DNA of 64,000 bases from a virus (IMGVR_UViG_3300014208_000024:288001-352000); one strand, 5' to 3'. Numbered from the stretch's first letter, positions 29,507-61,746 are shown. Made by a program: numbers and translations. The notes: generated by a model from the sequence alone, not told the origin.

Positions 29507-29650
29507 GGGAAAGGGGGCAACCCCTTTTTTTATTTTCTTTTTTTTAATTTCTGTTTTGTAGTAAACCAATAGACAAAAATACAAAAAGGTCAATTCCCAC
29601 TTTTTCAGAAAATTTGCTTTATATACTCACCAACCAACCAAACCAAAAAT

Positions 29651-29956
29651 ATGAAAACAATCGTAACGCCTTTCGAGCAGGCACAGGAAGCTGTCCGCAA
29701 TGGAAAACTGACAACCCCAACAGTTGTTGCAGAGGGAAAACAAATCGATTATTTCGGTTATCAGATCAGTGTTCACAGGTTTAATCTGAGAATAATGGCA
29801 GGGGATATGAAATTCAGGGGCGTCAAATTAAGAGATTTAAAGAATTATTACGGTCTGACAGGTCGCAGTGCAAGTGAATGCCTTGCACAGTTTGAAAATG
29901 TAGTAGCGGACTATCGCAGGCGGTTCAATCTACTGCAATCAGTAAACAAAAATTAA
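29651..29956 (+). CDS. Hypothetical early protein
   Basis: Own class-1 promoter and terminator. Confidence 0.65.
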   Translation: MKTIVTPFEQAQEAVRNGKLTTPTVVAEGKQIDYFGYQISVHRFNLRIMAGDMKFRGVKLRDLKNYYGLTGRSASECLAQFENVVADYRRRFNLLQSVNKN

Positions 29957-30188
29957 AAGGTGTGAAAGCCGAAAAAAGGGGGTGTGAAAGCCCTCTTTTA
30001 TTTTTTTTTTAATTTTTTAAATTTCGGTATTGTCGTAAACCAACAAGCCAAACATCCAAAAATGGCAATTCCCACTTTTCCAGAAAATTTGCTTTATATA
30101 GTCACGTTCTTTCGGTAGTTAAAAAAAGCGATCACAGGGAAACAAAAAATTCCCACTTTTTCAGAAAATTCGCTTTATATACTCACAA

Positions 30189-30199
30189 GCTCTTTGACA
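30189..30199 (+). promoter_or_regulatory. boxA-like antitermination sequence
   Basis: GCTCTTTGACA, cf. rrn boxA TGCTCTTTAACA, in the leader of the 30249 gene. Confidence 0.45.
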
Positions 30200-30248
30200 T
30201 ACTGAAATCAGAAAAAATAAAGTTACCAAACCATAAAAAACAAAAATT

Positions 30249-30806
30249 ATGAAAGCTACTACATTATTACAGTTAATCGAAAGTTTCGATTTTTCAGGTG
30301 TGTCCTTTATTTCGATAAAAGGATATTGTTCAGACGAAAGTGAAAACAGCGAAATCGCTGATGTTGTTGTGAATGTTGGTGCGTCTTATGGAAATATGAA
30401 AGATGCCGATTTGATTACCCTTCAGGGTGCAGATGTTTCAAAACTTGCTTCAGACAATTTTGGTTTTGCAATTCTTGAACAGGCTGTAAAAGAAAAAATT
30501 CAGTCAATTATTGCACCAAACGAAAACCGTTCAAACGGTCAAAAAGATGCCTACATCAACCTTAACCCCAAAGGTACTCTGAAATATTGCAAATCTACGG
30601 GCAGTGTTTTGATACAGGGTACGGTTGTTCGTAAAACTGTGATTAAAGAGGGTATTTTCAAAACAACAAATTCACGCCCTTTAACCCTTGCAAAAAAACA
30701 TATTGACAAGGTTCTTGATCTGAAAGTCGCAAAAATGCGATATTACAAAATTGCAAATATCACACGAAATGTAAAAGTTTCAGGTGATTGTATCGAAATC
30801 GAATAA
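30249..30806 (+). CDS. Hypothetical early protein
   Basis: Own class-1 promoter and terminator (30826-30856). Confidence 0.7.
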   Translation: MKATTLLQLIESFDFSGVSFISIKGYCSDESENSEIADVVVNVGASYGNMKDADLITLQGADVSKLASDNFGFAILEQAVKEKIQSIIAPNENRSNGQKDAYINLNPKGTLKYCKSTGSVLIQGTVVRKTVIKEGIFKTTNSRPLTLAKKHIDKVLDLKVAKMRYYKIANITRNVKVSGDCIEIE

Positions 30807-31146
30807 CGAAAGAAAACGATCAGGGAGAGGGGGGCAGGTTGCCCCTCTTTTTTTTTCTTTTTTTTTAAAAACCTTTCCCTGATATGGTGGTTTACGAGCA
30901 AACCGAAATTTAAAAAAAAGTTTTTAAAAACTTTCCCTGACATAAACTTTCCCTTGCGTTTCCCTGTATATAGAAAACGTTCCCTTTAAAACGGTTTTTA
31001 GGCTATTTTACAGGCTTTTTTTTATTACTGAATGATATTTGATATGTTTCCCCGATCAAAACGCTTTAAAATGCTTTAAAATGTTTCCCCAAAAACGTTC
31101 CCTCTTTTTCAATTTATTTGCTTTATATATTTTAAATAATTTAATT

Positions 31147-31800
31147 ATGAAATTAGATTTTTCAGGTCGCATAAATACTGATTATACAAAGGTTTCCCTT
31201 ACTCGCTCTTTTAAATATAAGGGCGGTTTTATTTCACCTAAGAGATTAAAAAACGGCAATGAAAAATTACATCATTGTTTTGTTTTCGATTTACCTGCTG
31301 TATTAAGTTGTCCTAATTGTAAAGGTTGCAAAGATAGTTGCTACGCTTTACAGGCACAAATGCAATATCCCGATGTAAGAGTTTTCAGGCATACAAATTT
31401 ACATCTTGCTGTTTTTAATATAAGCAAGTTAAAAGAGTTAATTTGTTCACAATTGCAGACATCACGAACAAACATTGTTCGCATACATGGTAGCGGTGAT
31501 TTTTTCAGTCAACAGTATGTGGATATGTGGCTCGAAATAATTAAAATGTTTCCTGATAAAAAGTTTTACGCTTATACAAAAGCTGAGAAATTATTTACCT
31601 TTAAAAAATTATCAAACTTTAACCTTATTACATCGTTTATAGGGGGCAAATTGAATTACGGTGACATTGATTATTGCAACAGTTTAAAAGATCGTTATAA
31701 CGCTTTTATTTGCCCTTGCGGAATTGATAAAACTGTTAAATGTGGAATTGATTGTAATTATTGTATAACGAATAAAAAGGTTTGTTTTTTGAAACATTAA
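31147..31800 (+). CDS. Gp88-family Fe-S/radical-SAM-like phage protein
   Basis: FDLPA..SCP.C..C..SCYA, VRIHGSGDFFS..Y, FYAYTK; start ATG 31147. Confidence 0.7.
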   Translation: MKLDFSGRINTDYTKVSLTRSFKYKGGFISPKRLKNGNEKLHHCFVFDLPAVLSCPNCKGCKDSCYALQAQMQYPDVRVFRHTNLHLAVFNISKLKELICSQLQTSRTNIVRIHGSGDFFSQQYVDMWLEIIKMFPDKKFYAYTKAEKLFTFKKLSNFNLITSFIGGKLNYGDIDYCNSLKDRYNAFICPCGIDKTVKCGIDCNYCITNKKVCFLKH

Positions 31801-32080
31801 ACCTTTCTCACTTTCCCAGAAAATTTGCTTTATATATCCATGAGAAAATAAATAAACAAACCAAAAAGGAATTTAAAATGCGAAAGTAAGTTTGTCTTTT
31901 CCTCTTAGTAATATTAAAATAGTAACTCGCACTCACAAGGTGCGGGAAAAACGTTTTTTATTTTGTTTTTTTAAATTTCTGTTTTGTCGTAAACCAATTA
32001 CAAAAAACTCCATAACTCTTTTTCCCTCTTTTTCATTTTATTTGCTTTATATATTCACAAACCAATTAAAACCAAAAGCT

Positions 32081-32317
32081 ATGAGTTTAACAATTCACAT
32101 ACAGGCAAAGTCCAAAAAAGAGATCAATGAAAAATTGGCTCAGGGTAAAAAAGTTTACGGAGAAAGTTATTCATTATTTGGCGGTGGTGGTACGTATGAA
32201 TTGAACAAAGATTTGCCCACAGGTACGGTAATTAAAATCTTTGAGAAATATGTATCGGGCAACCCGTTTGTAAAATCTTATGGTACGTGGGCTGCGAGTA
32301 AAAACAAGGTGATATAA
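32081..32317 (+). CDS. Hypothetical early protein
   Basis: Start ATG 32081 after promoter and leader. Confidence 0.65.
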   Translation: MSLTIHIQAKSKKEINEKLAQGKKVYGESYSLFGGGGTYELNKDLPTGTVIKIFEKYVSGNPFVKSYGTWAASKNKVI

Positions 32318-32379
32318 AAATTCCCACTTTCCCAGAAAATTTGCTTTATATCTTTATAAACCAATTAAAACTGACAATC

Positions 32380-32664
32380 ATGAAAAGATCAATAGGTTTC
32401 AAAAGGAGTGAGGAAAGAGAAATTGAAGTTTCAAACAATTCTTTACCTGCCACAAATGAAGATCGTCCCAGTGAAATTTCCGTACCAATGAGTTCTGCTC
32501 AGGTTGATCTACTTGAAACGATTCAAAACCTGTCTGAAATAATTGTGGACAAAAGTTTTGCAAAGTTTGCAGAAAACCAAAGAGTTTTATTTATTAAACA
32601 GCTTATCAATGCAGTTTCATTAAATTCTGAACTGACAACAAAAACAGCTATGCTGATGGTTTAA
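32380..32664 (+). CDS. Hypothetical early protein
   Basis: Start ATG 32380 after promoter and leader. Confidence 0.6.
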   Translation: MKRSIGFKRSEEREIEVSNNSLPATNEDRPSEISVPMSSAQVDLLETIQNLSEIIVDKSFAKFAENQRVLFIKQLINAVSLNSELTTKTAMLMV

Positions 32665-32734
32665 TCCCACTTTTTGAAATAATTTGCTTTATACAGACAT
32701 AAGAAATTGCCCGAAACAAATAATACTACAAATC

Positions 32735-32818
32735 ATGAATAGAATAAGAGAACCCGATGTAAGTAAAAAAATTTATTTAGAATTTATAAAACAATCCGTT
32801 GATCAAAAACTTTCGTAA
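32735..32818 (+). CDS. 27-aa small ORF
   Basis: ATG after class-1 promoter 32664; very short. Confidence 0.35.
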   Translation: MNRIREPDVSKKIYLEFIKQSVDQKLS

Positions 32819-33158
32819 AAAAGCAAAAAGGTATGCCGAGAATAAGATGCCCGAATAGGATAAAAACCCACTGAAAATTAACAAGAGTATTAACCCTAAA
32901 TGAAAAATAGTATGATAAGAGCCTCTCCGAAATAAGCACATCTAATAATCTATAATATATAATAATCCGATTAAAACCCCTACCCGTTTATATTTGGGCG
33001 GGGGTTTCTTTTTTTTATTTCTTTTTTTTAAATTTCTGTTTTGTCGTAAACCCTCCCTTTGAAACTTTCCCCAACCTTTCCCTGTTTTCCCCAGAGTTTT
33101 CCCACTTTTTCTTTTTATTTGCTTTATATACTTGTCAAACCAATTAAAACCAAAGATC

Positions 33159-33350
33159 ATGTCAAAAACAAAAAAATTCCACAAGCCGTCAAAAAGTGAA
33201 GTTGACGAAATGTATCTGAAAGCAAACCGCAAAGGTAGCAGACAGGCAGAACTTGAAAACGCCACAGGTTTTACCTCAAATCACAAAGCACACAAAAGTA
33301 AAAAAGATTACAACAGAAAACCAAAGCACAAAGGAAGTTGGGATTGTTAA
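33159..33350 (+). CDS. Small basic protein, ArfA/BrfA-like C-terminus
   Basis: ANRKGSR.AE...HKSKKDYNRKPKHKG. Confidence 0.6.
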   Translation: MSKTKKFHKPSKSEVDEMYLKANRKGSRQAELENATGFTSNHKAHKSKKDYNRKPKHKGSWDC

Positions 33351-33405
33351 TCCCACTTTTATTTTTTATTTGCTTTATATAATCACAAACCAAAAACAAA
33401 AACCA

Positions 33406-33738
33406 ATGAAAAGCATATTTGTAAAATTCGGGAACATGAGAGGTGAAGCGCAAGATTTTACCCTGTATCCGTACAATGGTGGTGATACGATTGTAATTCA
33501 ATCAGACAAAAGAATTGCACAGATCAATCTGAAAACAGGTGAAACGATACTGAGCAAACAGGTTCAGGGCGGGGCTTATTTCATGCACTTAAACGCATTT
33601 TTAGGGGCAACAGTTTGCCAATTTCCAAAAGATGAACTGATAAAAATTCAGGAATATTTGTGGAACAATGCAGGTGAAAAAATTCATGGAGGTATTTTGA
33701 TCACAGAAGACAAACCACTATTTTCAGTAAAATTATAA
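33406..33738 (+). CDS. Hypothetical early protein
   Basis: Start ATG 33406. Confidence 0.65.
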   Translation: MKSIFVKFGNMRGEAQDFTLYPYNGGDTIVIQSDKRIAQINLKTGETILSKQVQGGAYFMHLNAFLGATVCQFPKDELIKIQEYLWNNAGEKIHGGILITEDKPLFSVKL

Positions 33739-33807
33739 AAGAGGGGGCTTTCCCTCTTTTCCAGATAATTTGCTTTATATATTTACAAACCAATTAAAAC
33801 CAAAAAG

Positions 33808-34164
33808 ATGAAAAAATCATTAGCATTATTAGCAAAAGGGTTTGAAAGCTCATGTTCAACCACACCCGAATTTGCCCAGTTTTTTCGCACCTTTAAAAGC
33901 GAATTTACAAAAGAACTTCAAAGCATTGGGGCAACCAAAATCGAAATGAACAGGGGTCATTTTTACCTGTCAGGTTTTTTTACAAAAGGTGAAAAGATTT
34001 TCTATTTTTCTCTTTCCGATGTAAGAGGTTCAGACTTTGTTTTGGGCAGTGGTGGTGATCTTGATCTACTTTACAGAACTGCAAAACACTACAAAGATTG
34101 GTCAGGGGGTACAAATTGTTATGTAATAATCGAGGCGGGAATGGCTCAAAAAATGAGGTTATAA
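33808..34164 (+). CDS. Hypothetical early protein
   Basis: Own promoter; GHFY.SGF...YFS.SDVR...LYRTA..KD..GG.N pattern. Confidence 0.65.
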   Translation: MKKSLALLAKGFESSCSTTPEFAQFFRTFKSEFTKELQSIGATKIEMNRGHFYLSGFFTKGEKIFYFSLSDVRGSDFVLGSGGDLDLLYRTAKHYKDWSGGTNCYVIIEAGMAQKMRL

Positions 34165-34232
34165 AAAAGAGGGAACTTTCCCTCTTTTCTTTTTTATTTG
34201 CTTTATATATTTATAAACCAAAACTAATTTTT

Positions 34233-34457
34233 ATGAAAACAAATATTTTAAAATACAGTTTATACCTCATTTTTGTTTTAGCTTTAATTTCTAAAGTTGA
34301 CGGTTGGGGTGCAATTCTTTCAGCAGTAAAAGAGTTTTCGTCTTTTGTTTTATTTATGGCAGTTATCATCGCCTTTGTTGTTTTGCTTTATATAATGTTC
34401 AACAAATCAAAATCTCTCAAACGTTTTGTTGACGACAAAGATAATGAACTGAAATGA
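34233..34457 (+). CDS. Small two-TM membrane protein
   Basis: Two hydrophobic segments; start ATG 34233. Confidence 0.6.
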   Translation: MKTNILKYSLYLIFVLALISKVDGWGAILSAVKEFSSFVLFMAVIIAFVVLLYIMFNKSKSLKRFVDDKDNELK

Positions 34458-34521
34458 TCGTTTCCCACTTTTCAAAGAAATTTGCTTTATATAATCACAA
34501 ACCAATTAAAAACCAAAAATC

Positions 34522-34866
34522 ATGAAAAAAGCAAACATAGTATTTAATGACCAGAGAATACCATCGGAATATCTGAACACAATTCTCGTTGAAAATGTTA
34601 AAGATCTCATAAGCGCCCACAATTTTGTATTTGGATCTACATTCAGCGATTTTGCAAAAAAAGCATTAACAGGACTTAAAAAAACAAGCGATATAACATT
34701 CAGGATTGAAAGTTTAATAAGGAATGAAAATCTTGCCCCTCAAACAAAAATCTGCTTTATAAATCAATTAAAAGCTGTCCTTTCGGGTAATTTTATCAGA
34801 ATGAATAATGCAGGGGGTTACTTTGATTTTGACCCTAACAAAGCAACAATAACGAAATTAAAATAG
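34522..34866 (+). CDS. Hypothetical early protein
   Basis: Own promoter and terminator (34901-34930). Confidence 0.65.
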   Translation: MKKANIVFNDQRIPSEYLNTILVENVKDLISAHNFVFGSTFSDFAKKALTGLKKTSDITFRIESLIRNENLAPQTKICFINQLKAVLSGNFIRMNNAGGYFDFDPNKATITKLK

Positions 34867-35055
34867 GTTTTTTCATAGTTTAATTGTTTAAATTGGTTTG
34901 AAGGGGGGCTGGTTACCTCCCTTTTTTTTATTTTCTTTTTTTAAATTTCGGTTTGGTCGTAAACCATACCTTTTTGATTTTTCACCTGTGACTTCCCATG
35001 TTCCACTTTCTCAAATAATTTGCTTTATATACTCATAGCAAAAAACCATAAACAA

Positions 35056-35292
35056 ATGAAAACAATAGATAAAATTATAACCAAAGTAGATTGCAAATTC
35101 GGAGCGCCAATGGGAAGATATAATATAGGCAACAAGCCAACAAACAAAAGAGTTTTTGATTGTGCAGTCCCAATGAGTTGTGACGGTGCTTATGATAAAG
35201 GTGGGGCATATTTTGGGATTGGAAAACAATTAAGAGTTGAGTACACAAAAGATTTATCTTATGTGAAATTTTACAGGAGGGGAGAAAAATAA
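35056..35292 (+). CDS. Hypothetical early protein
   Basis: GAPMGR...YDKGGAYFG; start ATG 35056. Confidence 0.65.
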   Translation: MKTIDKIITKVDCKFGAPMGRYNIGNKPTNKRVFDCAVPMSCDGAYDKGGAYFGIGKQLRVEYTKDLSYVKFYRRGEK

Positions 35293-35347
35293 TTCCCACT
35301 TTTCAAAGAAATTTGCTTTATATACTCATAACCAAAAACCAAAACCA

Positions 35348-35539
35348 ATGACAAAAGAAAAAACTTATACAGGTGCTTATAAAGTAGTTCAAATTTTCAG
35401 AGTTTCTAAAAGGCGTAAAACTTTAAAGCGTGGTTTAACAAAAGAAGAAGCAATGAGGGTTGTTAACAGATACCCCAACAGTTCTCGGAGTATGGTTGTA
35501 TTTATGAAGCAATTTAGTGCTGATAAATATTTTGTTTAA
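35348..35539 (+). CDS. Small basic early protein
   Basis: Own promoter. Confidence 0.6.
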   Translation: MTKEKTYTGAYKVVQIFRVSKRRKTLKRGLTKEEAMRVVNRYPNSSRSMVVFMKQFSADKYFV

Positions 35540-35564
35540 CGGTTGTATAATAAAAAACAATTAA

Positions 35565-35951
35565 ATGAGATTCATTCTAAGACCATTTTGCATATTGATA
35601 GTAAAGTTTTTACAAAGAAGGTATAAACAAATAACTATTAAAAACAGGCACAATCAGACAAATCAGGTTTTATCAAAATTAAAACTGATACAATCAATTT
35701 TATATTATTTTAAAAGTCAATTTCATGCTTGGGGTTATTTTCACCCCGATTGTGGATGGAGCGAAAAAGATGAATTTAAGTTTAGGAAACTGTTTCCTAC
35801 AAAAGATTTTGAAGAGCTTGATTTAGTTGTTTTGCACAATCCTAATGCGATAACTTATTATCAGAATAGGATATATGACCTAACAAACGGAAAGAGCGTT
35901 AAATCCAGCGATATTGAGAAACAGTTAAGAAAGTGGAATGATTGGAATTAA
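35565..35951 (+). CDS. Hypothetical protein
   Basis: ORF. Confidence 0.5.
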   Translation: MRFILRPFCILIVKFLQRRYKQITIKNRHNQTNQVLSKLKLIQSILYYFKSQFHAWGYFHPDCGWSEKDEFKFRKLFPTKDFEELDLVVLHNPNAITYYQNRIYDLTNGKSVKSSDIEKQLRKWNDWN

Positions 35952-36003
35952 TCCCACTTTCTACAATAATTTGCTTTATATCCACAACCAAAACCTTAAA
36001 ATT

Positions 36004-36225
36004 ATGACTGAATTACAATTTATTCTTTTAGAAATTATTATTTTAATAATTATTTATCTTGGGTGTTTCTGTTTAATTTTTAAGTCAATGGTTTTTAATA
36101 CAGCAGAAGAAGAAATTAAAAACATGAAAATAAGCAATATAGTTGCTTTGATAGTAGTTTCAATCTGTGTTATTTGTATTTACATAAATTATCCGACATT
36201 CCCAATTTCCCACTTTCCCCAATAA
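36004..36225 (+). CDS. Small two-TM membrane protein
   Basis: Hydrophobic segments; start ATG 36004. Confidence 0.55.
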   Translation: MTELQFILLEIIILIIIYLGCFCLIFKSMVFNTAEEEIKNMKISNIVALIVVSICVICIYINYPTFPISHFPQ

Positions 36226-36261
36226 TTTGCTTTATATATTCATAACCAAAAATCAAAAGTC

Positions 36262-36480
36262 ATGATAGAATATCGCAAAAGATACAGTGAATCAACCACA
36301 CGTTCAACTTCACCCATAACAAAAAAGGGTCAGGCAATAACTGTTCGCAAAGGAAAAAAGAAATTTAAAGTTATAATCACGCACCCGAATTATGCTGGAA
36401 GCAATATAACTGAGGGGGATGCAAACGGAAAACATTATGTATGTTGGTTCAATTATGGTTCATGGTCTGTATCTAATTAA
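36262..36480 (+). CDS. Hypothetical early protein
   Basis: Own promoter. Confidence 0.6.
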   Translation: MIEYRKRYSESTTRSTSPITKKGQAITVRKGKKKFKVIITHPNYAGSNITEGDANGKHYVCWFNYGSWSVSN

Positions 36481-36534
36481 TTCCCACTTTTTATTTTAAT
36501 TTGCTTTATATATCCATAACCAAAAATAAAAGCC

Positions 36535-36771: not shown

Positions 36772-36831
36772 TAATATTCCCACTTTCCCAGGAAATTTGC
36801 TTTATATATCCATAACCAAAAAATAAAAGCC

Positions 36832-37257: not shown

Positions 37258-37310
37258 ACTCTCCCACTTTTCTTTTTTATTTGCTTTATATATTCACAAA
37301 CCGCAAAGCT

Positions 37311-37688: not shown

Positions 37689-37731
37689 TAAAATTTGCTT
37701 TATATACTTATAACTTTAAAACCTTTCCCCA

Positions 37732-39127: not shown

Positions 39128-39583
39128 ATGGGACACGATATATCCGCTTTTAAAATAGAATCAAAAAACGATGACAATATTGGTTTTCGTGAAGGAGAAG
39201 AAATTTCTTATGCTTGTTTTTCCGCTGGGAACATTGTGGGTCAATATCTTTTTTATGAAAGCCTAAATGCCCAAAAATTTAACGCTGGGTGCAGTGGTGG
39301 TGGTGGTCGGGATGTTTATACTATTGACCAAATAAAAACCGCCAAATCAAAGCTAAACTACATTTCCTCAGATGATAATGTGAGTGCAGAAATTAAAAGG
39401 TATTCATTTGATGAAAAACACAATATTTTTAAAAATCTTATTGATAGGCTTAATGGCAACCCCGAAAGTGCTTTATTAAAAGGAGATGCTGAAAGAATTA
39501 AACATGAAATTAAAAAGATCAATCAGTTTTATGATAATATTTTAAACAGCGGAGAGGAAACAATTATGATAGGGTTTTATTGA
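39128..39583 (+). CDS. Hypothetical early protein
   Basis: Own promoter; terminator 39571-39600. Confidence 0.65.
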   Translation: MGHDISAFKIESKNDDNIGFREGEEISYACFSAGNIVGQYLFYESLNAQKFNAGCSGGGGRDVYTIDQIKTAKSKLNYISSDDNVSAEIKRYSFDEKHNIFKNLIDRLNGNPESALLKGDAERIKHEIKKINQFYDNILNSGEETIMIGFY

Positions 39584-39694
39584 AAACCCTTTTTTATTTT
39601 CTTTTTTTAAATTTCTGTTTTGTCGTAAACCCATATACAAAATTCCCCCACAAGACAACTTCCCACTTTTTCAAATAATTTGCTTTATATACTC

Positions 39695-41677: not shown

Positions 41678-41750
41678 ATGAAAAGGGGGAACTTTCCCTC
41701 TTTTTTGTTTTATTTGCTTTATATACTCACTAACCAAAAAAAATAAAAAA

Positions 41751-42992: not shown

Positions 42993-43161
42993 TTTTTGGT
43001 TTGGTGAAGCAAGTGAAGGGAGGAAAGTGGTTCCTCCTTTTTTATTTTCTTTTTTTTAAATTTCTGTTTTGTCGTAAACCTCCCTATGTAAACTTTCCCT
43101 GGCAGGATTCCCACTTTCCAAAATAATTTGCTTTATATAGTTATAACCAAAAAATAAAGAA

Positions 43162-43698: not shown

Positions 43699-43768
43699 AA
43701 GAAAAGTGGGAACTCTCCCACTTTTTTATTATATTTGCTTTATATAGTCATAACCAATAATTAAGACA

Positions 43769-46578: not shown

Positions 46579-46775
46579 AAAGATTGGGTTCACCGTTATC
46601 CCCCCCTGGAAAACGGTTTGGTTATGATGGCTCGGAGTGGTTAACCGAGCCTTTTTTATTTTCTTTTTTTAAATTTCGGTTTGGTCGTAAACCCCATATC
46701 CACAATTCTGGTCCAGACAATTCCCACTTTTTCATTTAATTTGCTTTATATAGTCACAAACAAAAAATAATTTAT

Positions 46776-47798: not shown

Positions 47799-47912
47799 AT
47801 AAAAGGGGGGTTCTCTCCCTCTTTTTCTTTTTATTTGCTTTATATAGTTATAAATAGTAAAAAATTTCATGTATTACGAAATAATTTATAAACCACTAAA
47901 AAACAAATAGTT

Positions 47913-54113: not shown

Positions 54114-54207
54114 TAAATCCCACTTTTTCAGAAAATTCGCTTTATATACTTGTTAATGTAAAAAAAAATAAATAACTTTGCTAATTATTAACTAAATTTT
54201 TTTAAAA

Positions 54208-55020: not shown

Positions 55021-55081
55021 ATTCCCACTTTTTTAAATAATTTGCTTTATATAGTTGTTAGATAAATTAAAACTTAAGAAA

Positions 55082-55708
55082 ATGAAAGACGTAAAAGAGA
55101 TGAGTAAGAGTGCAATAGCCGATTTGGAATTGGTTAACGCCATCAAAAGTGAAGACAAAAGAAAATCAGAAAAGGCTTTTTCTCTGCTGTTTAAAAAATA
55201 CCATGATACTATGCTGTTTCACTTCAGGGGATTGGTAAAAGATGAAGAAGATGCAAAAGAAATTGTTCTCGAAGCTTTTGTAAAAGTAAGTTCAAACATT
55301 GAAAAATTCAATCAGGATTCCGCTGTGTTCAGCACATGGTTATTCAGACTTACACAGAATCTTTTCATCGATAAACTGAGAAAGAAAAAAGATGATGTTG
55401 TTTCTCTTAGCGACATGGCTACATATGACGAAGATAGCCATACTTTCGAGTTCGACTTTGAAGATTGTGATGGAACTCCTGAATCTAAAATACTGGATTC
55501 AGAAAAAGAAAGAAGAGTAAATGAAGTTCTTTCAAAAATGGAAAATCAGGAACTTGCCGAAATGATAAAAATGAGATATTTCCAAGGTCTGTCATACGAA
55601 GAAATCTCTAATGTTACGGGTAAACCTTTGGGAACTATAAAAGCTTTTATCTTCAGAGCAAAACAATTTCTGAAAAAAGACCTTAAAAGAGCTAAATTAA
55701 ATTTTTAA
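55082..55708 (+). CDS. ECF-family RNA polymerase sigma factor
   Basis: AF..LF.KY, DA.EIV.EAF.K, FSTWLFRL..NLFID.LRK (region 2), RYFQGLSYEEIS...G.PLGTIK..IFRA (region 4). Confidence 0.92.
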   Translation: MKDVKEMSKSAIADLELVNAIKSEDKRKSEKAFSLLFKKYHDTMLFHFRGLVKDEEDAKEIVLEAFVKVSSNIEKFNQDSAVFSTWLFRLTQNLFIDKLRKKKDDVVSLSDMATYDEDSHTFEFDFEDCDGTPESKILDSEKERRVNEVLSKMENQELAEMIKMRYFQGLSYEEISNVTGKPLGTIKAFIFRAKQFLKKDLKRAKLNF

Positions 55709-55776
55709 AATTCTACTTGATAATTTTTAAAGAAATCCTTATATTTACTTATAAGGATTTTTTTTTATTTATTATT

Positions 55777-56283
55777 ATGGTACCACAACAAGCAGGCCGT
55801 CCCCTCACTCCAGCAGAAAAGAAACAATATCTTTTGGCCAAATACACAAAGAGAGACTACAATGTAGGTGATTTAGAAAGTTGTAAAAAATATGCAGTAT
55901 ATTTTTGTCCAAATTTGGAACTTGTAAAAGAATGGAAATTATTACATGTATGTGGGAATCTGAATGAAGCAAAACAACAGATTTTTTGGAGAAAACAATA
56001 CATGAGTACAAAGGATGGGGATTTAATTATAGATAATTGTGAAGATTTTAAGACATGGAGAGATGAAACAAAAAATGTTGACTCTAACGGGAATGCTTAT
56101 GAGCCAGGAGAAGAATTAATGAAAATTGATTATAATGCTCCAGGAAATATGATTCAGGTAATAGCAAGTTCGACTCCAGCTCAACAAAATTCTAATGGAT
56201 TCAAAGGATTTGGGTTTTATACAGGAATTGAGATTGGAAATTATCAAGGTTTTTATAAAATTGAGGAAATTTACGAAGTATAG
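55777..56283 (+). CDS. Hypothetical protein
   Basis: Start ATG 55777, downstream of the sigma gene. Confidence 0.6.
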   Translation: MVPQQAGRPLTPAEKKQYLLAKYTKRDYNVGDLESCKKYAVYFCPNLELVKEWKLLHVCGNLNEAKQQIFWRKQYMSTKDGDLIIDNCEDFKTWRDETKNVDSNGNAYEPGEELMKIDYNAPGNMIQVIASSTPAQQNSNGFKGFGFYTGIEIGNYQGFYKIEEIYEV

Positions 56284-56340
56284 TAAAATAAACTCCCACT
56301 TTTTCAAATAATTTGCTTTATATAGTCAAAAGTTATTAAT

Positions 56341-56802
56341 ATGAAAAAAATTATTGAAGCTACGTATCATTTATTGTTCTTTAAAACTTATACCCACTTT
56401 TCAAGGTGGTTTGAAATTAGTAGCGGCATACTTGTTTGGTTAAATATTGCATTATTAGTTTGTATAATGAGTGGATGTGTAAAAGAAGGCCCCAGTGGAT
56501 ATGCAGAAATTTCAAGTGTTGAAGAACAGGAAAAATATGAAGTCAGTCATGATTCAACTTGGTCCAATGCTGATTCTATTGAATATGGTTTACTTCCAGT
56601 TTGGTATAAAGTAAAAAATACTGGCTTCGGAGAAATACATAAATATTCCATAACATTCGCTGTACTTCTTACAAATGGAAACTATATATACACTGAATCT
56701 TTTGGTACTGGAGTTAGAGATTATTCAACATCTTTAATATACATAGAAACCAACGGGCAAGAAGCGCAAGATGTTTTAATAACCAATCTTCAAGTTGAAT
56801 AA
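56341..56802 (+). CDS. Putative membrane protein or lipoprotein
   Basis: Hydrophobic stretch ending in SGC. Confidence 0.55.
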   Translation: MKKIIEATYHLLFFKTYTHFSRWFEISSGILVWLNIALLVCIMSGCVKEGPSGYAEISSVEEQEKYEVSHDSTWSNADSIEYGLLPVWYKVKNTGFGEIHKYSITFAVLLTNGNYIYTESFGTGVRDYSTSLIYIETNGQEAQDVLITNLQVE

Positions 56803-56862
56803 TTTGTTTTATCAACAAAATAATTACTTGGTTTTAACTTTTTTGTACTATTTATAAATAAA

Positions 56863-57801
56863 ATGGATACAAAAGAATTTATAGAAAAATCGAAAAAAAT
56901 TCATGGGGATAAATATGATTATTCAAAAAGCATATATGTAAAGTCAAAGATAAAATTGACAATCATTTGTCCAATTCATGGAGAATTTTTTATGGCACCA
57001 CAATCGCATTTGTATGGAAAAAACGGATGTCAAAAATGTGCAAAAATAAAAGGTCTACAAAATTTAATTAATAATTCAAATAAAAAAAGAATAACATTTG
57101 AATCATTTTTAGAAAGAGCAAAAAATATTCATAACAACAAATATGAATATGAAAAAATTGAAATTAAAAATTTTTATCAAAAAGTTCGAATTAAATGCCC
57201 TGTTCATGGATGGTTTATTCAATCTGTAGCTGATCATTTAAGAAAGCATGGATGTATTGAATGTCACAGACCAAATAGAGGAAGCTCTCAACGATTGCTG
57301 TTAGGAGAATTTATAGAAAAAGCAAATAATATTCATAATAATATATATGATTATTCAAAGGTAGTTTACACTAATAATCATACAAAAATAATAATAGGGT
57401 GTAAAACCCATGGAGATTTTCAACAAACACCTGCATCTCATTTAAAATCTAATGGATGTCCAATTTGCAAAAGTTCTAAAGGAGAAATAAAAATAAAAGA
57501 ATTTTTAGAAAAAAGAAACATTTTGTTTAAACAACAAAAAACATTTTCTGGATGTAAAAATAAACAACTTTTGCAATTTGATTTTTATCTTCCTGATTTA
57601 AATTCTTGTATTGAATATGATGGAATGCAACATTTTAAAGCAATAGAATATTTTGGAGGGGAAAAAGGTTTAATTGAAACTAAAAAGCGTGATATTATAA
57701 AAAATGAATATTGTAAACAAAACAATATTTCTTTATTAAGAATAAAGTACAATGAAAAAATAGAAAATAAAATTACTTCTTTTTTAAAAACTTTTTTTTA
57801 A
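56863..57801 (+). CDS. Zn-finger (CPxHG) repeat PD-(D/E)xK endonuclease
   Basis: KYDYSK...ICP.HGEF repeats; FDFYLP....IEYDG.QHF; TATTTATA upstream. Confidence 0.8.
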   Translation: MDTKEFIEKSKKIHGDKYDYSKSIYVKSKIKLTIICPIHGEFFMAPQSHLYGKNGCQKCAKIKGLQNLINNSNKKRITFESFLERAKNIHNNKYEYEKIEIKNFYQKVRIKCPVHGWFIQSVADHLRKHGCIECHRPNRGSSQRLLLGEFIEKANNIHNNIYDYSKVVYTNNHTKIIIGCKTHGDFQQTPASHLKSNGCPICKSSKGEIKIKEFLEKRNILFKQQKTFSGCKNKQLLQFDFYLPDLNSCIEYDGMQHFKAIEYFGGEKGLIETKKRDIIKNEYCKQNNISLLRIKYNEKIENKITSFLKTFF

Positions 57802-57918
57802 ATTTCGGTTTGCTCGTAAACCCCACAGTAAATCCACAAATCCAAAACTCCCACTTTTTCAAATAATTTGCTTTATATACTCACATAAACTAAATATTAA
57901 CAATTTAAATTTAAAAAA

Positions 57919-58758
57919 ATGGTACGTGAATTAAGTGAAAAAATAGGCTGGGAAATTGAAAGTAAAAATATTTTCTCAGGAGATCAAATAGGTCTCGAAA
58001 AAATTTTAGGGTACAAAGCTGTTACTCGTAATGATAACGGAGGAGTTCTCTCAGTTATGAAAAAATCTTATTCCCCCATGACCAACACAGAGTTTTTAGA
58101 AGTGGTTTCAAAAATTCAAGAAATATCTGGATTTAAACTTGCAGGGTTTAATGAATTCAGACAAGGGAGGAAAGTTTTGGGGTTCCTTGAAAATGATAAA
58201 GAGGATTTATATATTGGAGGACATAAAATAAAAGATTATTTTTTAGTTGGAAACAGCTTTGATGGATCTACATCTTTCTTCCAAGGTACATCGACAATTC
58301 TAATCCGCTGTCAAAATCAGTTCAGCCAAATTAATGTAATGAACAAAATCCGCCATACGAAAAGTATAGGAAGAAAACTTGAAGAATTTTATTCCTACTT
58401 AGATTTTTATTTCAACAAAAGAAATGAATTATATAAAACTTTCGAGCAACTTGGAAATATTACCCTCACAGAAAATTTACGTGAAAATCTTATTAAAGCT
58501 GCCCTTGGAGTTAAAGAAGTTACTGACAAAGAAATATCAGCTCGTAAACAAAATCAAATCGACCTGCTGAGATCAACAATACTCGCAGAAACTTTGGAAC
58601 TGGGCGAAAATATGTGGGGGGCATTTAATGGAGTTACAAAATATACAACCCACGAAATCGAAACAAAAAACCCCATCTTCGGAAATGTCTTCGGAAATCA
58701 GGCCGATATCAATAACAGAGCAATGGAATTTGCAACCAAAGAACTGGTAATGTCATAA
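57919..58758 (+). CDS. DUF932/DUF945-family protein
   Basis: R.D...L.V....Y.P..N.E, NSFDGS, IRCQNQ, .RHT, T.WG.FN.VT.Y..H. Confidence 0.75.
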   Translation: MVRELSEKIGWEIESKNIFSGDQIGLEKILGYKAVTRNDNGGVLSVMKKSYSPMTNTEFLEVVSKIQEISGFKLAGFNEFRQGRKVLGFLENDKEDLYIGGHKIKDYFLVGNSFDGSTSFFQGTSTILIRCQNQFSQINVMNKIRHTKSIGRKLEEFYSYLDFYFNKRNELYKTFEQLGNITLTENLRENLIKAALGVKEVTDKEISARKQNQIDLLRSTILAETLELGENMWGAFNGVTKYTTHEIETKNPIFGNVFGNQADINNRAMEFATKELVMS

Positions 58759-58821
58759 AGAAACTGGGGGAGGAAACTCTCCCCCACATTTTTTAAATGT
58801 TTAACTTAATAATTTATAATC

Positions 58822-59250
58822 ATGCATAAATCATTTGTAATTTTACTTTCGATTTTATTTAGCTTTATTATATTTGTAGACATAGGAACTATTGCATCTA
58901 TCGCATATAGAGATAATCAAAGAATCAATCAAGAAATAACTGTAAACAAAGACAGTTTCGAAGATCAATATCCCAGACTTGGACCATTTATTACCATTGA
59001 AGATTTTATACATGTAGATAGTATTTATAAAGCAGAAATGGACAGGATAAATAAATTAAAAAACAAACCTTTTAAAATGATTACAAAATGTAAATTTATT
59101 CCCGAAGTTGAATTTGTTGATTATGGAACATTCAAAGAAATAGATAGTCTTAAATGTATTCGACAAAAAGAAATGGAAAATCTTATCAAGCAAGAGAAAG
59201 AACAAGAAAAAGAACTTGATCTATTAAATAATAAACCCTGTAATAATTAA
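58822..59250 (+). CDS. Membrane-anchored hypothetical protein
   Basis: N-terminal TM segment. Confidence 0.55.
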   Translation: MHKSFVILLSILFSFIIFVDIGTIASIAYRDNQRINQEITVNKDSFEDQYPRLGPFITIEDFIHVDSIYKAEMDRINKLKNKPFKMITKCKFIPEVEFVDYGTFKEIDSLKCIRQKEMENLIKQEKEQEKELDLLNNKPCNN

Positions 59251-59332
59251 AAAGCCAAAGGGGGAGGAAACTCTCCCCATTTTTTTCTCTTTTTTTTTGC
59301 ATATTTAATGGAAATTCAAAACACCATTATCT

Positions 59333-59569
59333 ATGAAACCAAAAGAAACATTTAAGGAAATGCTCACTCTTTGCTATGAAGAAGATTTCCCAGAATTACA
59401 CAAAGAATTAATTTCACTTGAAAGTGAAACAAAAAAGATCAGAGACTCGTATAAGTATGAAAAAGCAATGGAGGAAATATTTAATCTTATACCCCTATTT
59501 TCTGAAGACTTTCCCCAGGAAATAATGTTGCAACTGGAAAAACTATATGAAGATTGTATAGAAGAATAA
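59333..59569 (+). CDS. Small acidic helical protein
   Basis: ORF after terminator 59268-59290. Confidence 0.55.
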   Translation: MKPKETFKEMLTLCYEEDFPELHKELISLESETKKIRDSYKYEKAMEEIFNLIPLFSEDFPQEIMLQLEKLYEDCIEE

Positions 59570-59584
59570 CTTAATTTAAATAAA

Positions 59585-60187
59585 ATGAAAAAAATCTCTG
59601 GAGACGTTATCGCTCACCTCCTGTTTGGAGTGGCTGCAATTGGTTTATTAATCGGTGGAGCTATTATGCTAATAGCATCTTTCTTTACAGCTCTCCCTAT
59701 ATTTAATGCTTTTATCGTATTAACACTGGGAGCTATCCTATATGTGGGAGTTAGACTTTATTTTGTATTCGGCGATGTACTGGAATCTATAACTAAATTA
59801 ATAGAAATTTCTTCCTCTCCCCAGATAAATAAGAACGGTAGAATATATAAAAATGGATTGTTAACAAAACAAATGGGATTTGGAGACCTGCCAACTCATG
59901 ATCTATCAAAAATTCCACATCCTGCACCAGGATTAATTGATGAAATTCTTATTGATGAAAATACAACCCCAGAGGAAATTGAAAATATTAAAAAGAAATA
60001 TCCTGGGTTCTCTCATGCAATTGATGAAATACTGGAAAAGGTTGGGGGGATTTCACGTACATCTACTTTACCCCTATCTTCTCTCTCTTCTTTTAAATTA
60101 GAAAAACTTCTTCAGGAAGCTATTGATAAAAATGATTTTGAAAGAGCTGCTGAAATAAGAGACGAAATTAATAGAAGGAATAAGTAA
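59585..60187 (+). CDS. Two-TM membrane protein with C-terminal UVR (UvrB/C) coiled-coil motif
   Basis: LEKLLQEAIDKNDFERAAEIRDEI. Confidence 0.7.
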   Translation: MKKISGDVIAHLLFGVAAIGLLIGGAIMLIASFFTALPIFNAFIVLTLGAILYVGVRLYFVFGDVLESITKLIEISSSPQINKNGRIYKNGLLTKQMGFGDLPTHDLSKIPHPAPGLIDEILIDENTTPEEIENIKKKYPGFSHAIDEILEKVGGISRTSTLPLSSLSSFKLEKLLQEAIDKNDFERAAEIRDEINRRNK

Positions 60188-60208
60188 CCTTTTAAAAATT
60201 AATCCGTA
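60183..60208 (+). promoter_or_regulatory. ECF-sigma-type promoter
   Basis: AGTAAC-N16-CGTA. Confidence 0.6.
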
Positions 60209-60354
60209 TAAGATAGTAAGAGTAATTTATATAACAAGTTGTATCTACTAATCGCATGATTAAAACCCCACACCCAAAATTTGCTGGGGTTTTTTTATTC
60301 CCACTTTTTAAAATAATTTGCTTTATATAGTTATTGTTAAAAAAAACTAAAGCT

Positions 60355-60525
60355 ATGTTTGAAAAACTAATCTGGAAACTGTTTAAAATGAACAGGAATG
60401 ATTTCAATAAGGCAGATAAGAAAATTGAAAAGATACTGCTTGAAGTTTATGAAAAAGGTAAAAAGGATGGCAAAAAAGAAATGTCAAAATTAATGTCGAT
60501 ATTAGTTAAAAAAACAATATTATGA
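60355..60525 (+). CDS. Small hypothetical early protein
   Basis: Start ATG 60355. Confidence 0.55.
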   Translation: MFEKLIWKLFKMNRNDFNKADKKIEKILLEVYEKGKKDGKKEMSKLMSILVKKTIL

Positions 60526-60911
60526 AATTAGAAATTAAGCAATACAAATATGAAAAAATAGAGGTGTCATCAAAAGAAATTGAATTGCCAACTGAAACCT
60601 CTTACTTTTTTCAAACTGGAATAAGACGTTCAATAAAAATAACTCCACGTTTTACAACTTGGAATAAAAAACACTATAATAAAGAAGAAGAGTTATATGA
60701 ACTTATAGTTGTTTGTTTATACCAAAATTTTGAATGTAAAGCAGAAAAGTTCAGCTTAAGAGTTAATGAATTAGAAAATATTTATTATTCTGAAAAAGAC
60801 GAAAATAAAGAATTTGTAACTGCATTGATTGATGGTTGTTTTAATAAAAGAACTAAAGAACAATTTGATGCTGATTTTAAACACATATTTTCAGAAATGC
60901 AGTGTCTTTAA
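60522..60911 (+). CDS. Hypothetical protein
   Basis: ATGA overlap. Confidence 0.6.
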   Translation: MKLEIKQYKYEKIEVSSKEIELPTETSYFFQTGIRRSIKITPRFTTWNKKHYNKEEELYELIVVCLYQNFECKAEKFSLRVNELENIYYSEKDENKEFVTALIDGCFNKRTKEQFDADFKHIFSEMQCL

Positions 60912-60912
60912 A

Positions 60913-61443
60913 ATGAAAAAATTTCTCCTGTTCATATTCAATTTATTCAATAAGAAATCTCTGGAGCCCCCAAAACCAGAACTCATCGTCATTAGCAAAA
61001 AATCAAATAGCGGAAGTACAATACAAAACCATTTTGTCTATACAGCTGCAAACCCCAGTATTAAATCTCTGGCCGCTTCTGTGCTTCTTAAAAATGATCT
61101 TATGTTTCAAGATGTAGACTACCTGGAAGATGAACTTCATAAATGGCTCGAATTTCGTGAAAGATATCTATATAAACAACTGATATTAAAAAAAGGTCTG
61201 ATATGTACCTATTGTGGAAAACCCCACCTGGAAATCGGAGGTAGAACCCCCAAAGATATTATCGCTAATAACAAAAACCCAAACCTGGCAACTATAGACC
61301 ATATTACAGCGCTCGCTAATGGGGGATCAAAGTATGATGAAGATAATCTATGCGTTAGCTGTAAAAAATGCAACAGAAACAAAGGAACAACCCCAGTGGA
61401 AGAATTTAAAAGAAAATTAAATTTTAAAAATTTTAATCAATAG
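60913..61443 (+). CDS. HNH endonuclease
   Basis: CTYCG...ATIDHI.AL.NGG.....NL.VSC..CN..KG. Confidence 0.85.
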   Translation: MKKFLLFIFNLFNKKSLEPPKPELIVISKKSNSGSTIQNHFVYTAANPSIKSLAASVLLKNDLMFQDVDYLEDELHKWLEFRERYLYKQLILKKGLICTYCGKPHLEIGGRTPKDIIANNKNPNLATIDHITALANGGSKYDEDNLCVSCKKCNRNKGTTPVEEFKRKLNFKNFNQ

Positions 61444-61444
61444 T

Positions 61445-61470
61445 TGTAACCTTTTTTAATTTTTCTCGTA
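61445..61470 (+). promoter_or_regulatory. ECF-sigma-type promoter
   Basis: TGTAAC-N16-CGTA. Confidence 0.7.
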
Positions 61471-61477
61471 TTAATAG

Positions 61478-61590
61478 GTAACTTGGATAACTTGGACGCC
61501 CGTCCTTAAACTATTCAAGTCTTTGTATTCTTTGTCTGTTTTATTTTTTAGAAACCCCTGAGCTTGTCCCTCTGGGGTTTCAGTTTTTTA
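61478..61590 (+). ncRNA. Candidate small RNA
   Basis: ACTTGGATA/TATTCAAGT stem enclosing GGAC-GCCC-GTCC; terminator GAAACCCC...GGGGTTTC-T6. Confidence 0.45.
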
Positions 61591-61746
61591 AAAACTTTTT
61601 TTTAAATTTCGGTTCCGTCGTAAACCCCCACAAACAATCTCTTTTTCTATTTTTTATTTTTCTTTTTTTAAATTTCGGTTTGCTCGTAAACCCCCATAGT
61701 AAAACCCCCAATCTAAAATTCCCACTTTTTTAAAAAATTTGCTTTA

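What the first reader, a model, noticed from the sequence alone, without database searches (positions are those of the whole stretch)
29545..61692. Unknown 23-bp element placed 25-28 nt upstream of a subset of early promoters
Seen: 12 copies of T-tract-AAATTTC(G/T)GTTT(T/G)G(T/C)CGTAAACC, most directly after a terminator U-tract. In 10 of 12 copies the next (T/C)TCCC word starts after a gap of 25-28 nt (26, 27, 26, 25, 27, 28, 27, 27, 25, 26). In 8 of these it is the promoter box itself; at 33030 and 34943 it is a partial TTCCC word just ahead of the full promoter. The element has a mini inverted repeat GGTTT-N6-AAACC. One copy (30889) is inverted with no promoter. Inference: a binding site for a phage activator, insulator or nucleoid protein, or a site-specific recombination core delimiting multi-gene modules.
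Basis: partly seen in the sequence, partly recalled or inferred. Interest (0 to 1): 0.7.

Follow-up and report, generated by a model that had tools for sequence, protein, structure and literature searches.

The report
Terminator-linked boundary box in phage early region
A 372-kb uncultured groundwater phage and several relatives carry a conserved, one-way ~31-base DNA box (a run of T's plus TTTCTGTT..CGTAAAC) just behind transcription stops and ahead of the next promoter in their early gene block; it is most likely the docking site of an unidentified protein that separates or controls early transcription units.

Summary
The window holds 12 copies within 3 mismatches (0 expected by chance). A diverged 13th copy lies at 62135-62157. 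There are none elsewhere in the 372-kb genome. All lie in a 33-kb block with 57 copies of a 35-bp promoter. In 8 copies the promoter box starts 25-28 nt after the element. The true unit is longer than 23 bp: an invariant run of 7-9 T, 3 nt, then TTTCTGTT-N4-CGTA(A/T)AC. The proposed mini inverted repeat is not conserved. I found 14 more copies in five related phage lineages, some at orthologous junctions. There the distance to the next promoter varies from about 30 to 90 nt, and that promoter is often of a second, ECF-sigma type. The link to the T-run holds in all 27 copies, and 26 point along local transcription. One 91%-complete relative keeps the promoters but has no element. I found no recombinase, phage RNA polymerase or recognisable DNA-binding early protein, and no RNA data. 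Best reading (about 0.35): a polar protein-binding site that backs up terminators and shields the next promoter. A classical operator or activator site comes close behind. This is a new variant of known repeated phage regulatory cassettes (T4 PeSL, SPbeta SPBRE).

The parts
29523..29567 (+). Copy 1: T-tract plus 23-bp element (29545-29567). GC hairpin 29506-29531 upstream; class-1 promoter 29594-29625 downstream, gap 26 nt.
29997..30041 (+). Copy 2: element 30019-30041. Hairpin 29974-29999; promoter 30069-30100, gap 27 nt.
30889..30933 (-). Copy 3, inverted: element 30889-30911 with its T-tract at 30912-30933. No promoter behind it. It lies just after the + strand terminator 30822-30854.
31951..31995 (+). 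Copy 4: element 31973-31995. Hairpin 31926-31946, which ends an ORF-less cassette; promoter 32022-32053, gap 26 nt. The orthologous junction in relative G006 has the hairpin and promoter but no element.
33008..33052 (+). Copy 5: element 33030-33052. Hairpin 32975-33006; promoter 33099-33130, gap 46 nt filled with TTTCCC words. Positional homologue upstream of the same small gene in G007.
34921..34965 (+). Copy 6: element 34943-34965. Hairpin 34900-34924; promoter 35000-35031, gap 34 nt.
39587..39631 (+). Copy 7: element 39609-39631. Hairpin 39571-39590; promoter 39660-39691, gap 28 nt, driving an ORF-less cassette.
43036..43080 (+). Copy 8: element 43058-43080. Hairpin 43015-43041; promoter 43108-43139, gap 27 nt.
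46649..46693 (+). Copy 9: element 46671-46693. Hairpin 46629-46651; promoter 46721-46752, gap 27 nt.
57778..57822 (+). Copy 10: element 57800-57822, no GC hairpin. The stop codon of nuclease-like ORF 56863-57801 lies inside it. Promoter 57848-57879, gap 25 nt, then the DUF932 gene. Orthologous copies lie upstream of the DUF932 gene in L130, L149 and L151; L150 has a copy about 1.3 kb upstream, with two small genes between.
61582..61626 (+). Copy 11: element 61604-61626 behind the conserved hairpin 61551-61581. It is followed by copy 12 rather than by a promoter (tandem, 66-bp period). Single orthologous copies in L132 and L135/L149; none in G006.
61648..61692 (+). Copy 12: element 61670-61692. 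Class-1 promoter 61719-61750, gap 26 nt, overlapped by an ECF-type promoter (AAC at 61750, CGTA at 61769).
62113..62157 (+). Hairpin 62085-62100 lies upstream; no promoter follows. Positional homologues at L132 13884 and L149 13235.

Best explanation
The element is a DNA-level docking site for one sequence-specific protein, phage or host, not yet identified. Its conserved unit is a run of 7-9 T, 3 nt, then the non-palindromic core TTTCTGTT-N4-CGTA(A/T)AC, pointing the same way as early transcription.

Proposed mechanism, inferred and not shown: the bound protein is a polar roadblock. RNA polymerase that reads through the preceding hairpin, or arrives where there is no hairpin, is stopped with its active site about 15 bp upstream of the core. 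That position lies inside the T-tract a few bases past the hairpin, where the RNA-DNA hybrid is weakest, so the transcript is released. The element thereby tightens the ends of early transcription units and shields the next promoter from read-in.

In this phage the next promoter is packed as close as the bound protein allows, which would give the narrow 25-28 nt gap. A direct effect on that promoter is possible as well.
For: SHOWN
- There are 13 copies, only in the 33-kb early block and all intergenic. Twelve are co-oriented with the 57 rightward promoters.
- 27 copies from six phage lineages align without gaps. The T-run, CGTA and AC are invariant and TTTC.GTT is nearly so. Sigma identity to this phage is 60-67% and DUF932 identity 63-73%. 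The adjoining spacers are almost unconserved: 0.37 identity against 0.32 expected from composition.
- The core has no dyad and no supported hairpin.
- The T-run is part of the unit. It is present in 27 of 27 copies, including 10 with no GC hairpin upstream.
- Where a hairpin exists, in 17 of 27 copies, its stem ends 16-31 nt before the core, mostly 19-26 nt. A polymerase stalled about 15 bp before the site would then sit about 4-11 nt past the stem.
- Distance to the next promoter and the promoter class both vary among relatives. The element is therefore tied to the terminator side.
- A copy closes the block in three phages.
- The 10 element-linked promoters never use the alternative compact layout, in which the terminator's 3' arm is the promoter box (0 of 10 against 15 of 47).

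PRECEDENT
- RNA polymerase I terminators consist of a hairpin, a T-rich stretch and an oriented Reb1/TTF-I site, with the polymerase stopped 15 bp upstream of the site (PMC12366685).
Against: - No protein is identified. Pfam and PHROGs find no DNA-binding domain in the roughly 75 early-block products scanned.
- No transcript ends could be mapped.
- The narrow 25-28 nt register in 8 copies, matched by 27-29 nt in G007, fits promoter contact at least as well as 'closest packing'.
- The inverted copy at 30889 has no evident leftward transcription to block.
- Relative G006 keeps terminators and promoters at orthologous junctions without the element, so it is dispensable there.
- Hairpin-to-core distances are broad, and the stem ends are ambiguous because A-T pairs can extend them.
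- Dedicated DNA-bound roadblock terminators have not been described for bacterial RNA polymerase, to my knowledge.
Confidence: 0.35

Rival explanations
1. It is a classical dispersed operator. One phage regulator, repressor or activator, binds the element centred roughly 75 bp upstream of the start site. It switches a subset of early units on or off together. SPbeta MrpR at its SPBRE sites and phi29 p4 upstream of its promoters are examples.
For: - The register is tight in this phage and in G007: element start to promoter core is 65-68 nt in 8 of 10 copies, and 66 and 68 nt in G007.
- The outlier at 86 nt is about two helical turns further out.
- The element marks only 10 of 57 promoters, as expected for a regulon subset.
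- Precedent: SPBRE was predicted in silico as a repeat in intergenic promoter regions and later shown to be the MrpR operator (PMC10516654).
Against: - In relatives the same element lies 30, 40 and about 90 nt from a class-1 promoter, or 32-49 nt before an ECF-type promoter. Three copies in the window have no promoter behind them.
- The invariant neighbour is the T-run, not the promoter.
- No regulator gene was found.
Confidence: 0.25
2. It is a protein-free signal read by the transcribing enzyme itself: a sequence-specific pause or termination signal, or a weak promoter-like site. The reason is that its 3' half resembles the -10 region of the phage's ECF-type promoters, and its core TTCTGTT resembles the T7 class II terminator ATCTGTT.
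For: - TCGTATA is the most enriched 7-mer upstream of genes outside the block, and it is present in the relatives' copies.
- The T7 class II core is ATCTGTT followed by T's (bioRxiv 10.1101/2021.01.11.426313).
- 18 of the 27 copies read TTCTGTT.
Against: - The -35 AAC of the ECF-type promoters is replaced by T in 27 of 27 copies.
- Both phage sigma genes are present in G006, which lacks the element.
- Seven of the window's copies read TTCGGTT, which breaks the class II core. The T-run is upstream, not downstream.
- No single-subunit or multisubunit phage RNA polymerase was detectable. The T7-type search had no positive control.
Confidence: 0.13
3. Its main role is evolutionary. As the conserved edge of terminator-promoter cassettes, it serves as a homology patch for recombination that shuffles, inserts and deletes early gene modules. 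T4-type PeSL elements work this way.
For: - The block is hyperplastic: about three quarters of its ORFs have no homologue in G006.
- Compared with G007, a 2.1-kb segment (30.9-33.0 kb) present only here is bounded by copies 30889(-) and 33030.
- Compared with G006, an extra unit of T-tract, element, promoter and a 78-aa gene sits at 31951-32317.
- The element and the DUF932 gene are present or absent together.
- There is a tandem duplication at 61604/61670. T-tract and core variants are mixed between copies, which suggests gene conversion.
- The PeSL mechanism is described in PMC2839356 and PMC4122927.
Against: - The 57 promoters offer far more homology than 13 elements, and breakpoints also fall at plain promoters.
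- Homology-driven exchange does not explain why exactly this sequence, with its T-run, is kept across lineages whose other intergenic DNA has diverged.
- It also does not explain why copies stay at the same junctions.
- No recombinase was found.
Confidence: 0.1
4. It is a site for a DNA transaction other than transcription: strand-specific nicking as in T5, polar replication-fork arrest as at Tus-Ter sites, or control of stepwise genome entry.
For: - The element is non-palindromic, about 23-31 bp long and oriented, and 12 of 13 copies lie on one strand.
- HNH, GIY-YIG and DUF4379/DUF723 nuclease-like genes lie in and beside the block.
Against: - The copies are confined to intergenic junctions of the early block and tied to terminators and promoters. 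None of these processes requires that.
- Nuclease genes adjoin only 2-3 copies.
Confidence: 0.05

Closest known systems
PeSL (promoter-early stem-loop) cassettes of T4-type phages (Arbiol et al. 2010, PMC2839356; Comeau et al. 2014, PMC4122927)
   Same: Repeated intergenic composites of a stem-loop terminator, an A/T-rich stretch and a strong early promoter. They are concentrated in a hyperplastic region of small orphan genes, and gene content differs between relatives at such junctions.
   Different: The promoter here does not fit the sigma-70 consensus. Only a subset of junctions carries an extra, separately conserved and oriented 20-bp core fused to a T-run. That core is kept across lineages even where the promoter class or spacing changes. 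Mini-circles or recombination were not tested.
SPBRE, the SPbeta repeated element bound by the master repressor MrpR/YopR (PMC10516654)
   Same: A short conserved element repeated about ten times in intergenic promoter regions of a large phage. It was first seen only in silico and later proved to be the operator of one phage protein.
   Different: SPbeta is a temperate Bacillus phage whose binder has a tyrosine-recombinase fold. Here no such gene is detectable, the phage shows no lysogeny genes in my searches, the element is asymmetric, and it is locked to a T-run rather than to the promoter.
RNA polymerase I terminators and promoter-proximal terminator T0 (Reb1/Nsi1/TTF-I sites; PMC12366685)
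   Same: The order of parts is the same: RNA hairpin, T-rich stretch, oriented non-palindromic protein site, placed before the next promoter. The geometry is also compatible, with a stall about 15 bp before the site falling in the T-tract.
   Different: That system is eukaryotic with a Myb-type roadblock protein. Here the protein, the stall and the release are all hypothetical, and 10 of 27 copies lack a GC hairpin.
T7 RNA polymerase class II terminator (ATCTGTT followed by T's; 10.1101/2021.01.11.426313)
   Same: A hairpin-independent, oriented signal containing TCTGTT next to T-rich sequence.
   Different: The T-run here is upstream of the core. Seven local copies read TTCGGTT. No single-subunit polymerase gene was found. 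A second conserved half, CGTA(A/T)AC, has no counterpart.

Membership tests
PeSL-type composite terminator-promoter cassette | Intergenic unit joining a stem-loop terminator to a strong, repeated early promoter | tested here: met
   57 promoter copies. 15 have a fused hairpin. 9 element-bearing junctions have a separate GC hairpin, and 8 of those lead to a class-1 promoter.
PeSL-type composite terminator-promoter cassette | Located in a hyperplastic region of orphan genes that differs between close relatives | tested here: met
   About three quarters of early-block ORFs have no homologue in G006. Gene order and content also differ from G007.
PeSL-type composite terminator-promoter cassette | Sigma-70-type -35/-10 promoter | tested here: not met
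   The class-1 promoter (TCCCAC box, then AATTTGCTTTATATA) is not picked up as TTGACA-17-TATAAT. Consensus-like sites are no more frequent than in shuffles.
PeSL-type composite terminator-promoter cassette | Indels and replacements between relatives bounded by the cassettes | tested here: inconclusive
   Some boundaries coincide with elements (30889/33030 against G007; 31951-32317 against G006; the DUF932 unit). Others fall at plain promoters. There are too few relatives for statistics.
Dispersed phage operator (SPBRE/MrpR type) | Short conserved element repeated in intergenic promoter regions of one phage | tested here: met
   13 copies, all intergenic, none elsewhere in 372 kb.
Dispersed phage operator (SPBRE/MrpR type) | Cognate phage-encoded DNA-binding regulator | tested here: inconclusive
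   No DNA-binding domain in the early-block products scanned and no tyrosine-recombinase fold gene. Most products are orphans, so absence is not shown.
Dispersed phage operator (SPBRE/MrpR type) | Demonstrated binding and regulation | not testable with these tools
   The phage is uncultured and no RNA run is listed.
Polar roadblock terminator (Pol I Reb1/TTF-I type) | Oriented, non-palindromic protein site | tested here: met
   No dyad. The proposed inverted repeat is not supported. 26 of 27 copies are co-oriented with flanking genes.
Polar roadblock terminator (Pol I Reb1/TTF-I type) | T-rich stretch directly upstream of the site | tested here: met
   A T-run of 7-9 ends 3 nt before the core in 27 of 27 copies, in an ungapped alignment.
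Polar roadblock terminator (Pol I Reb1/TTF-I type) | RNA hairpin upstream of the T-rich stretch | tested here: inconclusive
   A GC hairpin is present in 17 of 27 copies, 16-31 nt before the core. Ten copies have none.
Polar roadblock terminator (Pol I Reb1/TTF-I type) | Roadblock protein and transcript 3' ends about 15 bp before the site | not testable with these tools
   No RNA data and no candidate protein.
ECF-sigma promoter of this phage (tGTAAC-N16-CGTAtA) | -10 CGTA | tested here: met
   CGTA is present in 26 of 27 copies (AGTA at 29545); G, T and A are invariant.
ECF-sigma promoter of this phage (tGTAAC-N16-CGTAtA) | -35 AAC 16 nt upstream of CGTA | tested here: not met
   That position is TTT, part of the T-run, in all copies.
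T7 class II terminator | ATCTGTT core followed by a T-run, read by a single-subunit RNA polymerase | tested here: not met
   The core is TTCTGTT or TTCGGTT and the T-run is upstream. There is no PF00940 match, although that search had no positive control.
Site-specific recombination core | Recombinase encoded, and inverted-repeat arms around a core | tested here: not met
   No resolvase or phage-integrase match, with controls positive. The inverted repeat is not conserved.

The most novel reading that the evidence does not exclude
A clade of huge phages uses dedicated, DNA-bound polar roadblock terminators: hairpin, T-tract and an oriented protein site placed before the next promoter. This would be a bacterial-virus counterpart of the Reb1/TTF-I terminators of eukaryotic RNA polymerase I, insulating dozens of tightly packed early transcription units.
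Probability: 0.25. Interest if true: 0.7.

Novelty: new variant of a known kind. Interest (0 to 1): 0.45.

Why it matters
Early regions of large phages pack dozens of strong promoters into a few tens of kilobases, and how neighbouring units are kept apart is largely unknown.

This element is a clean, conserved and oriented candidate for a unit boundary or common operator in an uncultured group of 100-500-kb phages. A natural negative control exists: a related genome with the same promoters but no element.

If a bound protein helps termination, it would add a factor-assisted, DNA-site-dependent mode to bacterial transcription termination. It would also offer a compact insulator part. If it is an ordinary operator, it defines a regulon of about ten early units and a handle for finding the regulator.

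Tried and rejected
- RNA evidence: no RNA holder is listed for the stretch.
- Laying Logan contigs of two groundwater DNA runs: the contigs break at the repeated promoters and elements, and the joints are repeat artefacts. There were no informative variants.
- Exact-pattern scans of viral contigs for the element or promoter found nothing beyond G007.
- The metagenome scan gave 21 chance hits and one true relative.
- The bacterial-genome scan gave 5 single chance hits and no host clue.
- BLAST against deposited phages found no near relative.
- Relatives with 63-77% capsid identity, including a complete 519-kb genome, have neither the promoter nor the element.
- The regular expression was off by one position, so its negatives are void. 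The scan was redone.
- Phyletic profiling for a binder: only the DUF932 gene tracked the element. It is absent from the element-bearing L132/G007 fragments, and three of the positive contigs had been found through that very gene. It is a lead only, and the literature gives DUF932 no function.
- Domain scans of about 75 early products and 14 large ORFs found no DNA-binding regulator and no RNA polymerase.
- I compared the element by eye with the IHF, Fis, CRP, DnaA-box, sigma-54 and Bacteroidota -33/-7 consensus sequences recalled from memory. None fitted, and none is claimed.
- Hairpin or RNA-structure reading of the element: rejected.

Full report
WHAT THE WINDOW IS

The window is bases 288001-352000 of a 372,283-bp virus record, about 30% G+C and rated complete. 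Sequencing runs that hold it are groundwater metagenomes. The genome encodes a tail sheath, baseplate wedge, capsid, portal, terminase and DNA polymerase. It has two sigma-70-family sigma factors. I detected no RNA polymerase subunit or T7-type polymerase. Leaders upstream of start codons are A/C-rich and lack a Shine-Dalgarno sequence. The host is unknown.

THE SETTING OF THE ELEMENT

Between window 28.98 and 61.75 kb lie 57 rightward copies of a 35-bp promoter: a TCCCAC or TCCCTC box followed by T's, then AATTTGCTTTATATA. There is about one copy per small ORF. Outside this block the motif is essentially absent from the genome. I call it class 1.

One of the sigma genes, ECF-like, lies in the block at 55082-55708. 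About three quarters of the block's ORFs have no homologue in the nearest complete relative. This is therefore a hyperplastic, probably early region. 'Early' is an inference.

CHECK OF THE OBSERVATION

- All 12 copies are at the stated places with 0-2 mismatches, and none was found in 100 shuffles.
- The whole genome holds only these 12, plus a diverged 13th copy at 62135-62157 at the right edge of the block.
- In 8 copies the promoter box begins 25-28 nt after the element. Two others have gaps of 34 and 46 nt.
- Three copies have no class-1 promoter behind them. These are the inverted copy at 30889, copy 61604 (followed by copy 61670), and the copy at 62135.
- Nine of the 12 copies follow a GC hairpin.

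THE REAL UNIT

Aligning the cassettes shows that the T-tract before the element is conserved as sequence. Pairwise identity is 0.82 for the T-tract, 0.90 for the element, 0.89 for the promoter and 0.37 for the spacer, against 0.32 expected from composition. The spacer is A/C-rich with 8% G.

The proposed GGTTT-N6-AAACC repeat is barely stable and shows no support across copies. Positions 8 and 13 co-vary as T,T or G,G. That pattern is not a base pair and probably reflects two copy subfamilies.

RELATIVES

A metagenome pattern scan gave one true relative. A conserved early protein then led to two viral contigs.

- G007 is a 102-kb fragment. It has two copies with the same layout: hairpin, T-tract, element, 27-29 nt, class-1 promoter.
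- G006 is 290,886 bp and 91% complete. It has about 40 class-1 promoters in a collinear block. It has no element under a loose scan or an nhmmer profile, where the best hit scored 7 bits.
- At two orthologous junctions G006 has the hairpin and the promoter but lacks the T-tract, element and spacer.
- Contigs found through the sigma factor and through the DUF932 gene (L130, L132, L135/L149, L150, L151) carry 12 further copies.

The 27 copies align without gaps. The consensus is a T-run of 7-9, 3 nt, then TTTCTGTT-N4-CGTA(A/T)AC. Three positions are shared across lineages: upstream of the DUF932 gene, behind a conserved hairpin after the HNH gene, and at the end of the block. The element is therefore old, stable and under selection.

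WHAT VARIES AND WHAT DOES NOT

In the relatives the next promoter is 30, 40 or about 90 nt away. It is often an ECF-type promoter, 32-49 nt from the core, sometimes with a palindromic operator in between. The fixed 25-28 nt register is therefore a feature of this phage and G007, not of the family.

What never varies is the T-run three bases upstream and the orientation along local transcription. Ten copies have no GC hairpin, so the T-run belongs to the element and not merely to a terminator. In the window, element-linked promoters never use the alternative compact layout, in which the terminator's 3' arm is itself the promoter box (0 of 10 against 15 of 47).

MECHANISM

An asymmetric primary sequence is conserved without structure. 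It lies in non-transcribed or read-through DNA, is restricted to early intergenic junctions, and is oriented. Together these point to a protein-binding site acting on transcription.

Because the constant partner is the T-run on the upstream side, I favour a polar roadblock that assists termination and shields the next promoter. With the polymerase stalled about 15 bp before the site, its active site falls in the T-tract, mostly 4-11 nt past the hairpin stem. This is the same order of parts as in RNA polymerase I terminators (PMC12366685). It is inference, and I give it about 0.35.

The main rival, at about 0.25, is an ordinary shared operator or activator site, as SPBRE is for MrpR in SPbeta (PMC10516654). 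That reading explains the tight register here but not the relatives.

Other readings rank lower:
- A polymerase- or sigma-read signal is weakened by the missing -35, by the TTCGGTT variants, and by G006 having both sigma genes.
- A purely recombinational, PeSL-like role (PMC2839356, PMC4122927) is plausible as a side effect. It does not explain sequence-specific conservation at fixed junctions.
- No recombinase is detectable.

LIMITS

There are no expression data and no host. Most relatives are fragments. The binder is unknown: the early proteins are orphans. The DUF932 correlation is biased by how the contigs were found.

VERDICT

The element is real and conserved, and it is wider than described. 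It is best filed as a new variant of repeated phage regulatory cassettes, and it gives one testable mechanistic prediction.

Noticed in passing
window 29001-29021, 33335-33359, 33738-33759, 34166-34187, 41682-41703, 43703-43724, 47801-47823 and others: In 15 of 57 class-1 promoters the TCCC(A/T)C promoter box is also the 3' arm of a GC hairpin followed by T's. One sequence therefore serves as both the terminator of the upstream unit and the upstream box of the next promoter.
   Followed up: partly
genome-wide; in the window at 7138, 13443, 15818, 16851, 18522, 50475, 61448 and 61750: A second promoter class, tGTAAC-N16-CGTAtA, occurs about 38 times genome-wide. It is probably read by the ECF-like sigma encoded at 55082-55708. 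One copy overlaps class-1 promoter 61736.
   Followed up: partly
window 31822-31946; 39677 to about 39890; 61448-61581: There are three ORF-less promoter-to-terminator cassettes, likely small RNAs. The hairpin of the first is conserved in G006. The hairpin of the third is conserved in L132, L135 and G006.
   Followed up: no
L149 9860-9925; L130 11300-11365; L150 8715-8735; L132 5690-5720; L130 3422-3445: Palindromes sit around or before promoters in relatives: AATGAATTCATT flanking the ECF-type promoter of the DUF932 gene, and TTTCGCAATTCGCGAAA between the element and a class-1 promoter. They look like separate operators.
   Followed up: no
window 28979-28993 (-): A reverse-strand copy of the class-1 promoter core lies back to back with the first rightward promoter (29029), at the left edge of the early block.
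   Followed up: no
window 56863-57801: A nuclease-like ORF (DUF723, DUF4379, DUF2726 hits) runs through the T-tract and ends with its stop codon inside element copy 57800. An HNH endonuclease gene (60832-61443) precedes the tandem copies 61604/61670.
   Followed up: partly
window 30860-30990, 33053-33100, 43081-43110: Repeated TTTCCC words, partial copies of the promoter box, cluster in three of the element-adjacent spacers.
   Followed up: no
genome 91231-93876 (L014:6232-8877): An 881-aa ORF has weak Sigma70_r2 and Rsd/AlgQ-like matches. It is a possible third sigma-related or anti-sigma-like protein.
   Followed up: no
genome-wide, outside the early block: The motif (A/C)TATTTATA is enriched 4-6 fold within 120 nt upstream of about 110 genes. 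It is a possible third (late) promoter class.
   Followed up: no
genome 162062-165375 (L012:6063-9376): A homing-endonuclease gene sits directly beside the major capsid gene. The portal ORF also carries an HNH-like insert.
   Followed up: no
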